This document shows positions 1 through 39,000 of a DNA stretch of 64,000 nucleotides, piece after piece. The stretch is from Raja brachyura. Taxonomy: Eukaryota. The stretch spans positions 18,972,001 through 19,036,000 of the forward strand of contig OY740787.1 of NCBI GenBank assembly GCA_963514005.1, read 5' to 3'. The position numbers are program-made. Position 1 is the stretch's first letter; each line of letters starts with the position of its first letter.

Positions 1-3000
1 ATTAATCGTTGAGTGTATAACACATGACATGAATTGGATATAATATGATTGATGAACAAGGAACATTATTTGCATTGCACGGTCCAAATTGGTTATAATA
101 CGATTTGTTTAGAAATTTACAAGCAGAAAAATCTCCTTGGGGGAGGGGGGGGGGGGAGGATGAAAGTAGTTTAGGAAAACAAAAAACAGGTTCCATGTAA
201 CCTCCAAGCAGTTATCAGAGACTGGATGACACAAAGCTGGGTGGCAGAGTGAGCTGCGAGGAGGATGGTATGAGCTGCAGGGTGACTTGGATAGGTTGGG
301 TGAATGGGCAGATGCATGGCAGATGCGATATAATGTGGATAAATGTGAGGTTATCCACTTTGGTGGCAAGAACAGGAAGGCAGATTAATAACTGAATGGT
401 TCAGAAAGAACTGCAGATGCTGGAAAATGCTGGAGAGACTCAGCGGGTGAGGCAGCATCTATGCAGCAAAGGAATAGGTGACTTTTCAGATCGAGACCCT
501 TCTTCAGACTAATGTGCGGGTGGGGGGACGGGAAGAAAAAAGGAAGAGGCGGAGACAATAGGCTGTGGGAGAGCTGGAAAGGGGAGGTGAAGGAGAGAGA
601 AAGCAAGGACTAACTGAAATTGGAGAAGTCAATGTTCATACTGTTGGGGTGTCTACTACCCAAGTGAAATATGATTAATATTTAAGAAGGAACTGCAGAT
701 GCTGGAAAATCGAAGGTAGACAAAAATGCTGGAGAAACTCAGCGTGTGAGGCAGCATCTATGGAGCGAAGGAAATAGACAACTTTTCGGGTCGAGACCCT
801 TCTTCAGACTGAATAGGACAAATTCAGTCTGAAGAAGGGTCTCGAACCGAAACGTTGCCTATTTCCTCCACTCCATAGATGCTGCCTCACCCGCTGAGAT
901 TCTCCAGCATTTTTGTCTACCAAGTGAAATATGAGGTGCTGCTCCTCCAATTTGCAGTGGGACTCACTCTGACCATGGAGGAGGCCCAGGAAAGAAAGGT
1001 TGGATTTGGAATGGGAGGGGGAGTTGAAGTGCTGAGCCACCGGGAGATCAGGTTGGTTAATGCGAACTGTGCGGAGGAGTTGGACGAACCGATCGCCAAG
1101 CCTGCGCTTGTTCTCGCCGAAGTAGAGTAGTTGACACCTAGAGCAGCGAATGCAATAGATAAAGTTGGAGGAGGTGCAGGTGAACCTCTGCCTCACCTGG
1201 AAAGACTGCTTGGGTCCTTGGATGGAGTCGAGGGGGGAGGTAAAGCGACAAGTGTAGCATTTCCTGCGGTTGCAAGGGAAAGTACCAGGGGAGGGGGTGG
1301 TTTGGGTGGGACGGGACGAATTGACCAAGGAGTTACGGAGGGCGTGGTCTCTGCGGAAAGCCGAAAGGGGAGGAGATGGGAAGATGTGGCCGGTGGTGGA
1401 ATCCCGTTGGAGGTGGCGAAAATGTTGGAAGATTATCTGTCGTATGTGACGGCTGATAGGGTGGAAGGTGAGGACAAGGGGGATTCTGTCCTTGTTACGA
1501 GTGGAGGTGATGGGGAGTGAGAGTGAAGCTACGGGATATAGAGGAGACCCTGGAGAGCCTCATCTATAGTCGAAGAGGGAAACCCTCGTTCCCTAAAGAA
1601 TGAGGACATCTCCAATGCCCTGGTTTGGAACACCTCATCCTGGGTGCAGATGCGGCATAGACAGAGAAACTGGGAGCAGGGGATGGAGTCCTTACAGGAA
1701 GCAGAGTGGGAAGAAGTGTAGTCCAGATAGCCATGGGAGTCAGTGGGTTTGTAGTAGATGTCGGTCAGTAGTCTGTTACCTGCGATAGAGATGGTGAGGT
1801 CTAGAAGTGGTAGGGAGATGTCGGAAATGGTCCAGGTGACTTTGAGTGCCGGATGGAAGTTAGTGGTGAAATGGATGAAGTCAGTGAGTTCTGCATGGGT
1901 GCAGGAGGTGGCACAATGCAGTCATCACTGTAGTGAAGGTAGAGTTCGGGGACAGGGCCACGGTACGCCTCGAACAAGGATTGTTTGACGTAGCCTACAA
2001 TGAGGCAGGCATAGCTGAGGTTCATGCGCGTGCCCATAGCTACGCCTTGGATTTGGAGGAAATGGGAGGTGTCAAAGGAAAAGTTGTTGGGGGTAAGGAC
2101 CAGCTCCGCAAGGTGGATGAGAGTATTAGTAGACCTGGATTGGTTGGTTCTGCGGTCGAGGAAAAATGGAGAGCTTTAAGATTCTCCTGGTGAGGGATGG
2201 AGGAGTAGAGTGACTAAACTTCCATTTTCCAGGCTCCCACTCCCTCATGGTGAAGATGAGGGAGTGGGAGCCTGGAAAATGGAAGTCATGGAGGAGACGA
2301 AGAGTGTGTGAGGTATCTGAATGGTGGCAGATTAGGAAAAGGGGAGGTGCAACCAGACCTGGGTGTGCTTGTACGTCAGTCACTGAAAGTAAGCATGAAG
2401 GTACCGCAGGCTGTGAAGAAAGCAAATGGCATGTTGGCCTTCATTGCGACAGGATTTCAGTTTAGGAGGAAGGAGATCCAACTGCAGTTGTACAGTGCCC
2501 TGGTAAGACCTACAACTGTATTGAGTGGAGTTTTGGTCTCTTAATTTGAGGAAGGATATTCTTGCTATTGAGGGAGTGCAGTGTTGGTTCACCAGGTTAA
2601 TTCCCAGGATGGCGGGACTGACATATAATGAAAGAATGGGTCGAGAAGAATGAGAGGAGATCTTCTAGAAACATATAAAATTCTTAAGCTATTAGACAGG
2701 CAAGAAGCAGCAAAAATGTTCCTCGTGTTGGGGGAATCCAGAACCAGGGGTCACAGATAAAGAATAAGGGGTAGGCCATTTAGGACTGAGATGAGGAAAA
2801 ACCTTTTCACCCAGAGTTGCGAATCTGTGGAATTCTCTGCCACAGAAGACACTGGATGTTTTCAAGTTAGATTTAGCTCTTTGGGCTAACAAAATCAATG
2901 GATTTGGGGAAAGAACGGGAATGGGGTACAGATTTTGGATATTTAGTGATGATCATATTGAATGGTGGTGCTGGCTCGAAGGGTCGAATGGCCTACTCCT

Positions 3001-36000: not shown

Positions 36001-39000
36001 CCAGTGTGCATGGGTGATGGATGGTCAGTGTGGACTCAGCGGGCCAAAGAGCCAGTTTCCATGCTGGACCTTTAAACAAAAATATGAACTTGATGCGAGT
36101 GATGAATAAGGAAACACTATTTGCATTAAGCAGAGCGAATTAGATATAATGCAATTTCAATTGGGAATGAGATAACCACTTAAAAGTTACTTAGGAAATT
36201 AACAAGCAGAAAAAGCTGGCTTATATTTTAACAGTATAGGGAGAAAATATTGTTCCCCACAGTGATCAGACACCATTGTCTGTTAAGAACACAACTGCTA
36301 CTTTAACTGTGTCTGGCCACTGAAATTGATAAGCAATAGTTTGCATTGACATTTGTGCAGGGATACCTATTAAACAATGTCACATGCAGCCTTTGGTATA
36401 TTTAGCTTGCAGTGATAAAAACAAACCTGCAGATACAAAATCACTTGCAGCCAATACCAAACTATATTTTTGAAAATCCTGTATTAAAAGTAATTTCGTA
36501 ATTGCGATTCTGAAACTCTATCCCCAATCCTCTTTCCTCATTGTTCATAACACAATTTTCTATAAGACAAGGTTTATCAGGAACATTTAGGCTGGATGTA
36601 GTTGGGTGATATTACGCAAGCAAACAGATGGGACATGCAGCCAGAAATTCCCTTTTGGAGTCAAATACAATAGGAAGGCTATGAACAGTCTGAGTCAAGC
36701 TTGGATGCAAGTTCTGGGCTGGAATCAGTAGCTTAGGAATGAAATTTGTAGTGAGTCCAAAAACAATGGCTAAGGTCTTTCCAATATTTAAATATAGCTC
36801 CCTCCATTCCCCATCATCATCAGCCTCATCTCTAATTACATCATATGAGATCCATATTTTTTCGTATGTTGGCAGTTCTGTTGCCAAGCGAAGCTTAATT
36901 CTTTTCTAGTTGCTGCAATTATATACTTTGAATGCACACTGCAGAAATTACACCAAGATTGCGCAGACTTATTTAATGTATCCCATTTTATTCCAAGAGA
37001 CCATTAGGCCGGCCCGAGCCAAAAATCGGACCATTTTATACGATTCTGTTGTACACTATTTTACCCAGTTGCAAATAAGATTGGCGTTCAAGGATAGCTC
37101 TATTTACATGGGTTAATTAAAAAATACAAATTTAAAAAACAACAAAAAAAAACGTAGTTTTGCCTTCAGTAAGAAAACAGAACATCTGATTTTATTGTTC
37201 AGCAATGAAGTCAATAGTACACACTGCAATCTTCTTATTGAGGTTTGTAAGTGCAAGTTCATCTTTCTTTTTTTCTTCTGAGACCATTGCTCCCCCATTC
37301 CTTCATCTTGTTCCATTAAACTGCCAAAGGATCCATCTTCTTCCAAACTTAAAATCGAGTATCCTGCTAGCATCGTTTACTCCAACAGAAAATGCTGTGA
37401 ATATTCAGCAGGTCTGGCAGCATCAAAATAGAGCTAACTTTTCAGGTCACTTTCATCAGAGTGCCTGGGAATATGGTGAAGTGTCTTTGACTTGAAATTT
37501 TAACTCTGTTTCTCTTTGAACAGATGTTGCCTGATCAGTTGAACATTTCCAACATTTGTTTTTATGCAGATCTTGTTTCAGTTTAAAAAAAACTCAAACA
37601 CATTCCAAGGATCTAAAATCCAAAATTGCACATCTCATATAATCTACTCACTTTAAAAACAAAGTTGACATTGGATATCTAATTAATATACTTAATCGTG
37701 CCTGTATATATTTACTGTTCAATCAGGCTTCAATTATGAAAAGGAATTCAAACTCCCATAAAGCATTTTTAATGCATGTCTCGATTTACACTATTGCAAT
37801 ACAACCAGTGTCAACCCAAGGGTTTGATGCCAAATAATAGTTATAGCTGAAGACATTTCTCGTTTTGAGACCATGAATTCTGGTGTGAAATTATATAAAT
37901 ATTGCCTTGGGACTTGTCAGTAAAACAATAATTTGCATTTATATTATGCCTTTAAGATAATCATCCCATGGTGCTTTCAGATGTATAATTAAAAATAAAG
38001 ATATTAAAATGAAAAATTGCATATATTGGGACATGACCAAAGAGCATATCAAAGGACAATGGGAAATGGACAGCAGAAAGATTTTCTAGAAAAAATTCCA
38101 GAATCGCAGACTATGTGTAAGTTTTTCAGATAGGGGCAACATTTTCAGATTGGAGATGTGAAGGAATTAATCCACAGGTATGGACAATGTCTAATCAGGA
38201 CAGTGCATGAAATATGACTTAAATCGTTTATATCGTAGAAACATAAGACGAGCTCACGTCGCCTTAAAAATTCTCATTCATTCAATGTGAACATGACAGA
38301 TTCTCCAATATAAAAATCCACTTCCACGTACAATATGTGCATTGCTAGATTCTATTGGTATCCAACATTCTTATCGATCTCAGCCTCTCATATACTCATT
38401 CACTTAGCACCCACAGCTTGATGGGGTATAGAATTATAGAGAATCACAACCCTCTAGAGGAACCAACCTCTAGCTCTATATTTCTATTCCTTTTAGCCAA
38501 TAAATAAGCTTCACAAAATCCCAATAACTTCAATGATATCAATGAGAAGCTTCACAAAATCCCGTATACTCTAATGATACAAATGAAGCTGTCCTACTCA
38601 ATATAGGGATCTCCTGGTGCATTTATTCTGTAATGCCTCCAAAGCAAATACATTCTCTCTTGGGCCAATACTCCACTCTAGTATAATCCCACCAATTCCC
38701 TGTTAAAAAGAAAAGCTGTTCCTTGTTTGGGTATTCCAAGATTATTGAGTAGACAAGTCCAGAGGTAACAGGGTACAGACACAAGGAACTGCAGGTGCTG
38801 CTTAATACAAAGGAGGGCACAAAGTGCTGGAGTAACTCAGCAGGTCAGGCAACATCTCAGGATAGGTGACGTTTTGGGTCTCCCTGACGTGCTGAGATTC
38901 ACCAGCACTGTGTCCAGAAATAACAGAGGTATGGATGAGATGTCATAAAGAGAATCGGCCAAATGCATGTTATTACCAAGATAGAGATATTGTAAGCCTA

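What the first reader, a model, noticed from the sequence alone, without database searches (positions are those of the whole stretch)
660..38932. The hammerhead unit inserts on its own, mostly as inverted dimers with 13-17 bp TSDs
Seen: at least five insertions consist only of the non-coding unit and have flanking direct repeats. They are 675-919 (15 bp), 8420-8594 (13 bp, 1 mismatch), 9889-10142 (17 bp, perfect), 19031-19138 (15 bp, 1 mismatch) and 38777-38911 (imperfect). Four are inverted pairs whose junction falls at or next to the ribozyme core. Older diverged pairs with the same layout occur at about 7620-7820, 17560-17765 and 37385-37560. Inference: either a non-autonomous retrozyme/SINE-like family moved by the Penelope RT and GIY-YIG enzyme, or stereotyped ultra-short Penelope integration products with 5' inversion. 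The recurrence across subfamilies of different age suggests a long-lived mechanism.
Basis: partly seen in the sequence, partly recalled or inferred. Interest (0 to 1): 0.75.

Follow-up and report, generated by a model that had tools for sequence, protein, structure and literature searches.

The report
Short inverted Penelope-end insertions in shark
The small hammerhead-bearing repeats are the cut-down 3' ends of a Penelope-like jumping gene of a shark or ray, pasted in alone or as head-to-head pairs; this is a clear example of an insertion pattern already described for these elements, not a new kind of element.

Summary
The observation mostly holds. The 95-135 nt "hammerhead unit" is the 3' end of a Penelope-like element (PLE: reverse transcriptase plus C-terminal GIY-YIG nuclease) of a cartilaginous fish.

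- **Target duplications.** Four unit-only insertions carry significant 13-17 bp duplications. Two of them sit inside older PLE copies whose paralogues show the unfilled site.
- **Layout.** Three of these four, plus 38782-38914 and two older pairs, are head-to-head inverted dimers.
- **What fails.** 17560-17765 is not an inverted pair, and the duplication at 38777-38911 is not significant.
- **3' ends.** There are two discrete 3' ends about 28-40 nt apart, matching the published PLE "tail". All five callable dimers have one arm of each kind.
- **5' ends.** 13 of 19 arms stop within about 5 nt of the CUGAAGA box.

These features match published PLE anatomy and biochemistry: an inverted truncated terminal repeat, a palindromic junction, a one-sided tail, two internal RT start sites, and nicking and extension of both strands.

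Best reading: minimal PLE integration products, not a separate retrozyme or SINE family. One window cannot exclude a lineage of unit-only ("solo") copies. Interest is modest.

The parts
61337..63841 (+). Coding copy D: N-terminal motif region from about 61359, RT, GIY-YIG ORF 62895-63455, 3'UTR, unit 63693-63821. The CUGAAGA box starts at 63700, the short-end position is about 63792 and the long end about 63822. Bases 63817-63841 repeat 61337-61372.
404..2313 (-). Coding copy A (5'-truncated, short 3'UTR type), interrupted at 675-919 by insertion L1. Its own unit lies at 404-514.
660..934 (.). Insertion L1: target duplication 660-674 and 920-934. Tail-bearing arm 675-814 (-), 7-nt loop 815-821, tail-less arm 822-919 (+).
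8403..8607 (.). Insertion L2 (older): duplication 8403-8419 / 8591-8607. Tail-less arm 8420-8494 (-) has an internal deletion of the core 3' half. Tail-bearing arm 8495-8590 (+) starts at the first base after the predicted cleavage site.
9031..10465 (-). Coding copy B (5'-truncated, long 3'UTR type), interrupted at 9889-10142 by insertion L3. Its own unit lies at 9031-9154.
9872..10159 (.). Insertion L3: duplication 9872-9888 / 10143-10159. Tail-bearing arm 9889-10012 (-), perfect palindromic junction centred on 10013. A 36-nt partial direct repeat 10013-10048 is followed by tail-less arm 10049-10142 (+).
19016..19153 (+). Insertion L4: duplication 19016-19030 / 19139-19153, 5-nt filler, 12-nt repeat of the box region 19036-19046, then a single tail-less unit 19047-19138.
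38782..38914 (.). L5: old inverted pair. Tail-bearing arm 38782-38880 (-) starts inside helix II. A short tail-less arm lies at 38881-38914 (+). No significant target duplication.
35345..35472 (+). Its 5' end lies about 4-5 nt before the box. A 10-nt flank repeat with 1 mismatch is only suggestive (7 of 300 random pairs as good).
15079..15204 (+). Old monomer solo unit with tail. Its 5' end is at the box.
7620..7822 (.). Old inverted pair: tail-less, 5'-truncated arm 7620-7668 (-), 30-nt spacer, full arm with tail 7699-7822 (+).
37385..37558 (.). Old inverted pair: arms 37385-37465 (-) and 37474-37558 (+). Both start at the box edge, with an 8-nt spacer.
58035..58803 (-). Coding copy C: 5'-truncated, short 3'UTR type, tail-less 3' end. 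Serves as the paralogous empty site for L1 and L3.
15680..16049 (-). Old 5'-truncated coding copy (s15b) with its unit at 15680-15771.
39569..39771 (+). 5'-truncated copy s39, keeping about 85 nt of long-type 3'UTR plus unit and tail. It lies between two pieces of an older minus-strand PLE.
6818..6894 (-). Old monomer unit fragment. Its 5' end is about 3 nt before the box.
32395..32472 (-). Old tail-less unit fragment whose 5' end is the first base after the predicted cleavage site.

Best explanation
The loci are minimal integration products of an endonuclease-bearing Penelope-like element (PLE) of a cartilaginous fish. They are made by the element's own RT and GIY-YIG nuclease.

**Shown**
- The unit is the last 95-135 nt of the element.
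- It inserts with 13-17 bp target duplications into AT-rich sites.
- It has two discrete 3' ends, with and without a tail of about 28-40 nt.
- Its 5' end is sharply defined at the 5' edge of the hammerhead-like core.

**Inferred**
1. The nuclease makes staggered nicks on both strands, which gives the duplication.
2. Each 3'-OH primes reverse transcription at one of the two internal start sites of a template RNA. One arm therefore carries the tail and the other does not.
3. Both cDNAs run about 100-135 nt to a common stop at the box edge.
4. The two identical-sense cDNAs are joined head to head, with a few spacer bases or through the short palindrome CAGTCTG that sits there.
5. When only one strand is used, a monomer results. 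Template jumps at the 5' stop give the 36-nt and 12-nt partial repeats.

**Why the stop is sharp (least secure step)**
The template is probably a short RNA that begins at the box edge. An initiator-like heptamer lies there, and a TATA lies about 29 nt upstream in the long-UTR copies. On this view any copy that keeps 3'UTR plus unit can spawn unit-only RNAs that still hold the RT start site.
For: **Element identity**
- D's C-terminal ORF is 63% identical to a whale-shark protein. That protein has RVT_1 followed by a GIY-YIG domain above Pfam's cut-off (23.2 vs 22.6 bits).
- GIY-YIG is sub-threshold in two window copies at the matching place (E 0.041 and 0.022).

**Core motif**
- CTGANGA-N10-16-GAAAYR gives 6 matches against 0.28 expected. 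0 of 100 shuffles reach 6. 5 of the 6 lie in unit copies.

**Insertion**
- Four target duplications beat chance, and two have paralogous empty sites.

**3' ends**
- The alignment of 16 copies shows two ends only.
- 5 of 5 callable dimers pair a tailed with a tail-less arm: L1, L2, L3, L5 and 7620-7822. Two further pairs could not be called.
- Tailed copies outside dimers: D, B, A, 35345, s39, 15079. Tail-less: C, L4, 32395.

**5' ends**
- Of 19 profile-detected arms without 3'UTR, 13 reach the box and show no UTR homology beyond -6 (12 to 191 of 200 shuffles as good). The other 6 start inside the unit.
- By event, 9 of 12 unit-only events have an arm ending at the edge.
- 5 of 7 UTR-bearing copies show clear UTR homology (0 of 200 shuffles as good).

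**Subfamilies**
- Three unit subfamilies each include coding-attached and solo copies.

**Promoter-like features**
- YYANWYY surrounds the A at -3 in 4 of 7 UTR-bearing copies; the background rate is 0.013 per position.
- TATA lies at -29 in D and B and at -30/-32 in s21.

**Literature**
- PMC11167929 (main text read): a purified Poseidon protein nicks and extends both strands, starts RT at two adjacent internal sites whose spacing is the tail, prefers AT-rich targets, and makes shorter products from 5'-shortened RNA.
- PMC3846280 (passages): head-to-head inverted terminal repeats, palindromes at the junction, a 31-bp tail on one inverted repeat, and solo repeats.
- PMC8557442 (passages): the same scheme.
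- PMC4209133 (parts 1-2 read): minimal hammerheads occur mostly singly, or as pairs on opposite strands, and are taken for truncated PLEs.
Against: - Solo copies are closer to each other than to the coding copies present. L3 left arm vs L4 is 91 of 92 identical, against 88 of 94 to D. L1 left arm vs 35345 is 86 of 93, against 75 of 84 to A.
- L3 and L4 share one base that D and the outgroups lack. This would also fit a solo lineage. Only one or two coding copies per subfamily are available.
- In vitro, the two RT start sites showed no strand preference (PMC11167929). Strict pairing of a tailed with a tail-less arm is therefore not predicted by that work. With about 0.6 tailed copies among monomers, 5 of 5 mixed pairs has a chance of roughly 0.02 (my arithmetic).
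- That paper reports initiation without homology to the nicked DNA. Here, read by eye, the tail-less ends of L1, L2, L3 and L4 each share about 2 nt with the target.
- No full-length copy starting with a 5' unit is in the window, so the proposed RNA start is untested.
- D's own 5' end lies in the tail region, not at the box edge.
- In Drosophila virilis Penelope the start site lies about 120 nt upstream of the hammerhead, with an intron between. This distance is my inference from combining PMC2377424 passages with PMC4209133.
- Rfam finds no hammerhead, and helix II shows no covariation above shuffles.
Confidence: 0.7

Rival explanations
1. Self-priming (snap-back) origin of the dimers. One cDNA is primed at the tail site and copied to the 5' stop. 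It folds back on itself at the short palindrome and copies itself outward. It stops short of the tail and joins the other target end by microhomology.
For: - Palindromic or near-palindromic junctions: L3 is perfect, and L1 forms a 100-bp stem with a 7-nt loop.
- The outer end of the second arm is always the tail-less one (5 of 5).
- About 2-nt overlaps with the target lie at tail-less ends (by eye).
- Self-priming was proposed for PLE inverted repeats in PMC3846280 (passages).
- Copy A holds an internal 23-nt snap-back-like inverted duplication.
Against: - Tail-less ends also occur on single copies with target duplications (L4, C), so they can be true start sites.
- In L3, the right arm and its 36-nt partial repeat share a core base that the left arm lacks. 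This is easier to explain with two templates.
- Both-strand nicking and extension was seen in vitro (PMC11167929).
- A 1-nt centre cannot fold back within one strand.
Confidence: 0.3
2. A separate non-autonomous family, retrozyme- or SINE-like, with its own master copies. It borrows the PLE enzymes through the shared 3' end.
For: - The 5' end is sharply defined.
- Solo copies resemble each other slightly more than the coding copies present, with one shared derived base in L3 and L4.
- A preprint argues that animal non-LTR retrozymes derive from PLE terminal repeats (10.64898/2026.07.22.740005; abstract, part 1 of 2 of the results and further passages read).
- Non-autonomous PLE relatives sharing 3' ends are reported in Chlamydomonas (PMC8557442 passage).
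Against: - No sequence of its own: every base of the unit is in the coding copies.
- All three subfamilies, of different ages, have both coding-attached and solo forms. The solo form therefore arose repeatedly, or continuously.
- No unit-length tandem arrays (only 36 nt x 2.1 and 12 nt x 2.1).
- No tRNA, 5S or 7SL match in or next to units.
Confidence: 0.15
3. A MITE-like DNA transposon with terminal inverted repeats that merely resembles the Penelope end.
For: Inverted arms flanked by direct repeats. The pair forms a strong hairpin (-162.7 kcal/mol, z -20.9).
Against: - Duplications vary from 13 to 17 bp.
- The outer ends are unequal: one arm carries the tail and the other does not.
- The arms are the element's 3' end, pointing outward.
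- Monomers with the same duplications exist (L4).
- Partial direct repeats at the centre fit template jumping.
Confidence: 0.02
4. Ordinary random 5' truncation of Penelope copies, plus chance adjacency of two copies.
For: PLEs are heavily 5'-truncated (PMC8557442, PMC8969392 passages). Longer truncated copies occur in the window (A, B, C, s39).
Against: - 13 of 19 UTR-less arms end within about 5 nt of one position in an element of about 2.5 kb.
- Each dimer lies within a single pair of target duplications, with an uninterrupted paralogous site.
Confidence: 0.03

Closest known systems
Inverted pseudo-LTR architecture of EN+ Penelope-like elements (Adineta vaga Pen families, PMC3846280; general scheme in PMC8557442)
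   Same: Head-to-head inverted terminal repeat next to a direct one. Palindrome or short overlap at the junction. A tail of about 30-40 bp on only one repeat. Variable target duplications. Insertion into other PLE copies. Solo terminal repeats exist.
   Different: Here no ORF lies between the repeats, so the whole insertion is the two 3'-end pieces (175-254 bp) or a single piece. The rotifer solo repeats were reported without target duplications. The rotifer duplications were 8-10 bp, against 13-17 bp here.
Poseidon element PAc of Anolis carolinensis, in vitro (PMC11167929)
   Same: Two adjacent internal RT start sites whose spacing equals the tail. Nicking and extension of both strands. AT-rich targets. 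Product length set by the RNA 5' end. A hammerhead a short way upstream of the start sites.
   Different: That work reports no strand bias in start-site use and no homology at initiation. Here the genomic dimers always pair one site of each kind, and the tail-less ends show about 2-nt overlaps. The paper does not describe unit-only genomic dimers.
Minimal hammerhead motifs of metazoan PLEs (PMC4209133)
   Same: CUGANGA and GAAA boxes, an extra base before helix II, a G-C closing pair and a palindromic ACGU in place of helix III. They are mostly single copies, with some pairs on opposite strands 100-700 bp apart, and were taken for truncated PLEs.
   Different: That paper did not map target duplications, tails or junction positions. 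Here helix I is at most about 2 bp by eye, and no cleavage data exist.
Animal non-LTR retrozymes (preprint 10.64898/2026.07.22.740005; PMC7229834 seen in search listing only)
   Same: Non-coding, hammerhead-bearing, related to PLE terminal repeats, with dispersed monomers.
   Different: Retrozymes are defined by direct tandem arrays and circular RNAs. These loci are inverted pairs or monomers with target duplications, and there are no unit-length tandems.
Twin priming 5' inversions of human L1 (recalled from memory; only a search listing of PMC2912911 was seen)
   Same: Both nicked strands prime cDNA, and the products are joined with an inversion within one target duplication.
   Different: In L1 the second primer anneals inside the RNA, so the two segments are different parts of the element. 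Here both arms copy the same 3'-terminal stretch from protein-chosen start sites.

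Membership tests
EN+ Penelope-like element | RT and C-terminal GIY-YIG nuclease in one ORF | tested here: met
   D's ORFs are colinear with shark proteins. The whale-shark homologue has RVT_1 followed by GIY-YIG above cut-off. The window copies themselves are sub-threshold: RVT_1 E 0.0092, GIY-YIG E 0.041 and 0.022.
EN+ Penelope-like element | Target duplications of variable length | tested here: met
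   15, 13-17, 17 and 15 bp at four loci. 0-1 of 300 random pairs are as good. Empty paralogous sites are shown.
EN+ Penelope-like element | Optional 30-40 bp tail on one end; inverted 5'-truncated copy head to head | tested here: met
   Two discrete 3' ends. 5 of 5 callable dimers have a tail on one arm only.
EN+ Penelope-like element | Pseudo-LTRs: a direct terminal repeat framing a full ORF (partial tandem) | tested here: inconclusive
   No copy in the window has a unit at both ends. D shows only a 25-36 nt terminal repeat, which could be a long target duplication.
EN+ Penelope-like element | Clade placement (Penelope/Poseidon, Neptune, Nematis) by RT phylogeny | not tested
   No reference PLE set was available. 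Nearest proteins are unnamed shark and ray models.
Minimal hammerhead of PLEs (Cervera and De la Pena 2014) | CUGANGA and GAAA boxes around a helix II hairpin, an extra base after position 9, and a G10.1-C11.1 pair | tested here: met
   Pattern: 6 matches against 0.28 expected. In alignment A5, helix II forms a standard pair in 91% of cells.
Minimal hammerhead of PLEs (Cervera and De la Pena 2014) | Palindromic 15.2-16.2 (ACGU) for dimer formation | tested here: met
   ACGT follows GAA in 8 of 18 rows of A5, including D, B and L4. The other rows differ by single changes.
Minimal hammerhead of PLEs (Cervera and De la Pena 2014) | Helix I of 4-5 bp | tested here: not met
   Read by eye. At most about 2 pairs form between the bases before the box and those after the predicted cleavage site, in every subfamily.
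Minimal hammerhead of PLEs (Cervera and De la Pena 2014) | Self-cleavage | not testable with these tools
   Needs transcription and a cleavage assay as a dimer, possibly with the element's protein.
Rfam hammerhead families | Score at or above the gathering threshold of a curated hammerhead model | tested here: not met
   No hammerhead match at gathering, at E<=10 on the whole window, or on slices of 181 and 271 nt.
Non-LTR retrozyme | Direct tandem array of whole units, each with a hammerhead | tested here: not met
   TRF finds only 36 nt x 2.1 (10013-10086) and 12 nt x 2.1 (19036-19060) in units.
Non-LTR retrozyme | Circular RNA of unit length | not testable with these tools
   No RNA data.
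SINE | tRNA-, 5S- or 7SL-derived head with a pol III promoter | tested here: not met
   No such Rfam match anywhere in the window at E<=10. The unit starts directly with the hammerhead box.
MITE / DNA transposon | Identical terminal inverted repeats and a fixed-length target duplication | tested here: not met
   Outer ends are unequal (tail against no tail), duplications are 13-17 bp, and monomers exist.

The most novel reading that the evidence does not exclude
PLE copies, including dead 5'-truncated ones that keep the 3'UTR and unit, transcribe a short RNA that starts at the hammerhead's 5' edge and still holds the RT start sites. A dimeric element RNP then copies two such RNAs from both nicked target strands, with coupled use of the two start sites: tail on one strand, none on the other. 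The result is a self-sustaining stream of hairpin-forming mini-insertions.

This would give in vivo genomic footprints for both-strand target-primed reverse transcription. It would also show a strand asymmetry not seen in vitro. The two old arms that begin exactly after the predicted cleavage site would be the first genomic traces of ribozyme-cut templates.
Probability: 0.2. Interest if true: 0.55.

Novelty: new member of a known kind. Interest (0 to 1): 0.3.

Why it matters
The PLE integration mechanism is still poorly understood. These short, young insertions have clean target duplications, and two have paralogous empty sites. They let every junction be read base by base, which gives a compact natural record of start-site choice, template ends and strand joining.

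If the one-tailed-arm rule and the sharp 5' stop hold genome-wide, they would constrain models built on the single in vitro system. They would also explain why minimal hammerheads are so numerous as singletons in animal genomes. For annotation, such pairs are easily mislabelled as MITEs or microRNA-like hairpins.

Tried and rejected
- **Rfam.** No hammerhead family matched, either on the whole window or on two slices. The sub-threshold microRNA-like hits simply reflect the hairpins.
- **Covariation in helix II.** Not above shuffles (181-225 of 500 as high).
- **Target duplications at other loci.** Within chance for 38777-38911, 15079-15204, 7612-7830, 37380-37565, 17560-17765, s39, 32395, 6818, 39992 and 21463. 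Only suggestive for 35345 and for copy C (7 of 300 each).
- **Paralogous empty sites for L2, L4, L5, 35345 and 15079.** None in the window.
- **Does the unit carry the start codon?**
  - The ATG at 63750 is in frame through the tail with the repeat of D's 5' end.
  - However, the 5' copy has 11 extra bases.
  - Homology to shark proteins is firm only from 61371.
  - Subfamilies differ in frame in the tail (by eye).
  - No database protein starts with that peptide (after one search was too short). This question is left open.
- **Is the 155-nt segment present in the B/D 3'UTRs but absent from A and C an intron?** It has no GT-AG ends (by eye). Rejected.
- **Drosophila-type downstream promoter element in the core.** The ACGT lies about 3 nt off the expected spacing (by eye; consensus from PMC2377424 passage). 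Not claimed.
- **Target duplication for s39.** None found.
- **Literature.** Searches for shark PLE hammerheads, or for both-strand priming linked to inverted PLE structures, found nothing beyond the papers cited. Supplements of the papers were not opened.

Full report
**What the window is**

The window is 64 kb with no N. The C-terminal ORF of the best coding copy (62895-63455) is 58-63% identical to unnamed proteins of whale shark, devil ray, stingray and zebra shark. An N-terminal piece matches stingray and bamboo shark proteins. I take the window for a cartilaginous fish, not human.

The whale-shark homologue carries RVT_1 followed by a GIY-YIG domain above Pfam's cut-off. The window's own copies give only sub-threshold hits: RVT_1 E 0.0092 and GIY-YIG E 0.041 and 0.022 at the matching place in two copies. 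An RT with a C-terminal GIY-YIG nuclease is the architecture of endonuclease-bearing Penelope-like elements (PLEs), as described in PMC8557442 and PMC11167929.

**What the unit is**

In copy D the ORF stops near 63455 and a 3'UTR follows. From 63700 come a CUGAAGA box, one extra A, a 4-bp hairpin, GAAAC and GUC, and then about 65 nt to a first end or about 95-105 nt to a second end. The same stretch ends coding copies A, B, C and 15680-16049.

The core fits the "minimal hammerhead" of metazoan PLEs (PMC4209133, parts 1-2 read):
- It has both catalytic boxes, a base between positions 9 and 10.1, a G-C closing pair, and a palindromic ACGU where helix III would be.
- A degenerate pattern for it gives 6 matches against 0.28 expected. 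5 of the 6 lie in unit copies.

Evidence that falls short:
- Rfam reports no hammerhead at any threshold.
- Helix I is at most about 2 bp by eye.
- Helix II shows no covariation beyond shuffles.

"Hammerhead-like" is therefore justified by motif only. Activity is untested.

**Checking the five insertions**

Flanking repeats at four loci exceed 299-300 of 300 random position pairs:

| Locus | Left copy | Right copy | Match |
|---|---|---|---|
| L1 | 660-674 | 920-934 | 15 of 15 |
| L2 | 8403-8419 | 8591-8607 | 15 of 17 |
| L3 | 9872-9888 | 10143-10159 | 17 of 17 |
| L4 | 19016-19030 | 19139-19153 | 14 of 15 |

- L1 and L3 lie inside PLE copies A and B. Paralogous copies C and D run straight through the site with one copy of the target. 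This is as close to an empty site as one window allows.
- The repeat at 38777-38911 is within chance (29 of 300).
- L1, L2, L3 and L5 are head-to-head pairs. L4 is a single unit.
- Of the three older pairs, 7620-7668 / 7699-7822 and 37385-37465 / 37474-37558 are real.
- 17560-17765 is two weak pieces on the same strand (E 0.056 and 0.97).
- There is a further probable pair at 39992-40050 with an arm at about 40056-40100, the latter seen by eye only.

**Regularities beyond the finding**

- **Two 3' ends.** The alignment of 16 copies shows only two 3' ends, about 28-40 nt apart.
  - All five dimers that can be called (L1, L2, L3, L5, 7620-7822) join one tailed arm to one tail-less arm. Two pairs could not be called.
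  - Outside dimers both ends occur. Tailed: D, B, A, 35345, s39, 15079. Tail-less: C, L4, 32395. 15680 is intermediate.
- **A sharp 5' stop.**
  - Of 19 profile-detected arms without 3'UTR, 13 reach the box and show no UTR homology beyond -6.
  - The other six start inside the unit, at about +12 to +16 (two arms), +29 (two arms), +39 and +54.
  - By event, 9 of 12 unit-only events have an arm ending at the edge.
  - In an element of about 2.5 kb this is not ordinary truncation.
- **Template jumping at the stop.** The 36-nt partial repeat in L3 and the 12-nt repeat in L4 both begin again at that edge.
- **A module boundary.** The 3'UTR type (short in A, C and 15680; long in B, D and s39) does not follow the unit subfamily. 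The unit edge is therefore also a boundary between modules in coding copies.
- **AT-rich targets.** All four target sites contain an AT-rich ATAT/TATA stretch.

**Is there a solo lineage?**

Three unit subfamilies of different age each contain coding-attached and solo copies. The solo form has therefore arisen in each.

Solo copies are, however, slightly closer to one another than to the coding copies present:
- L3 left arm vs L4: 91 of 92 identical, against 88 of 94 to D.
- L1 left arm vs 35345: 86 of 93 identical, against 75 of 84 to A.
- L3 and L4 share one base not in D or the outgroups.

With one or two coding copies per subfamily, this may only mean that the coding copies here are older or come from other masters. 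The question needs the whole genome.

**Mechanism**

The anatomy matches what is in print.
- PMC3846280 (passages): rotifer PLEs have head-to-head inverted terminal repeats, palindromes at the junction, a 31-bp tail on one inverted repeat, target duplications, insertion into other PLEs, and solo repeats.
- PMC8557442 (passages): gives the same general scheme.
- PMC11167929 (main text): a purified Poseidon protein nicks and extends both strands and starts reverse transcription at two adjacent internal RNA sites whose spacing is the tail. It prefers AT-rich DNA and makes shorter products from 5'-shortened RNA.

Put together, the likeliest course has four steps:
1. Staggered nicks are made on both strands.
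2. A cDNA is primed on each strand, one from each start site.
3. Both cDNAs run to a common stop at the box edge.
4. They are joined head to head, in L3 through the palindrome CAGTCTG and in L1 across a 7-nt loop.

Steps 1-2 rest on the in vitro work plus the tail pattern. Steps 3-4 are inference.

A single-cDNA snap-back, as proposed in 2013, remains a fair rival for the joining step.

**Why the stop is sharp**

This is not settled. There are two candidate explanations.
- An RNA 5' end may lie there.
  - An initiator-like YYANWYY surrounds the A at -3 in 4 of 7 UTR-bearing copies.
  - TATA lies at -29 in D and B and at -30/-32 in 21463-21623.
  - The consensus motifs are recalled. An Inr/TATA pair in a rotifer terminal repeat is mentioned in PMC3846280.
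- Strand switching may occur at the palindrome.

In Drosophila virilis the start site lies further upstream, with an intron ending at the hammerhead (PMC2377424 passages; PMC4209133). The shark arrangement would therefore differ.

**Comparison and verdict**

The loci work like, and belong to, the known PLE insertion repertoire. They are its smallest form: terminal pieces only. They are not retrozymes (no tandem arrays), not SINEs (no pol III-type head) and not MITEs (unequal ends, variable duplications).

The following were not found in the papers I could search:
- The strict pairing of a tailed with a tail-less arm.
- The sharp 5' stop at the hammerhead edge.
- The clean 13-17 bp duplications around unit-only dimers.

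These are modest refinements, based on a handful of loci. I rate this a new member of a known kind, with interest 0.3.

Noticed in passing
window 61337-61372 and 63817-63841: The 3' end of copy D runs past the tail into about 25 nt that repeat D's own 5' start. The repeat is two 14-nt blocks with 1 mismatch each, and the 5' copy has 11 extra bases. It is either the terminal redundancy of a unit-length copy or an unusually long target duplication. The ATG at 63750 inside the unit is in frame with the repeated stretch.
   Followed up: partly
window 8495 (+) and 32472 (-): Two old arms begin at the first base after the predicted hammerhead cleavage site (2 of the 6 arms that start inside the unit). 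This hints that ribozyme-cut RNA is sometimes a template. The cases are few, old, and noticed after the fact.
   Followed up: partly
window 2217-2287: Copy A holds a 23-nt inverted duplication of adjacent coding sequence, giving a near-perfect 32-bp hairpin that is absent from copy D. It is a small snap-back-like scar inside an ORF. It also draws sub-threshold microRNA-like Rfam hits.
   Followed up: partly
window 2314-3031, 3641-4669, 17887-18865, 22649-24298, 27574-27831, 30236-31597, 54403-55518, 55794-56522: A second, more abundant RT-bearing repeat family (RVT_1 only) has copies up to 99% alike and no hammerhead unit. Copy A abuts one at 2313/2314. The family was not classified.
   Followed up: no
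window 25849-27206 (+): Another RT element has RVT_1 plus an ALKBH8_N-type match. A lone CTGATGA...GAAACA pattern match at 25394-25420 nearby has no helix II and is probably chance.
   Followed up: no
window 51148-53301 (-), 41656-42720 (-), 19808-21163 (-): Long open frames of 717, 354 and 451 aa. The first two have no Pfam family at E<=0.01. The third has a weak PWWP match. They may be host exons or unknown element proteins.
   Followed up: no
window 39373-39489, 39569-39771, 39787-39842: The truncated copy s39 lies between two pieces of an older minus-strand PLE nuclease region. Together with L1 and L3, this is a third PLE-in-PLE insertion in 64 kb. No target duplication was found.
   Followed up: partly
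window 34763-34927: A CA/TA-rich palindromic microsatellite gives the strongest, still sub-threshold, microRNA-like Rfam hits. It is unrelated to the unit.
   Followed up: no
protein P0004 (zebra shark model), C-terminus: The annotated protein runs on past the nuclease domain and translates a CUGAUGA...GAAAC core. The public gene model therefore reads through the element's 3'UTR and hammerhead.
   Followed up: no
window 480-640, 58100-58260, 15740-15900 versus 63455-63730, 9118-9400, 39540-39680: Two 3'UTR types differ by a segment of about 155 nt that ends exactly at the unit's 5' edge. The UTR type does not follow the unit subfamily, which suggests recombination or template switching at that edge.
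   Followed up: partly
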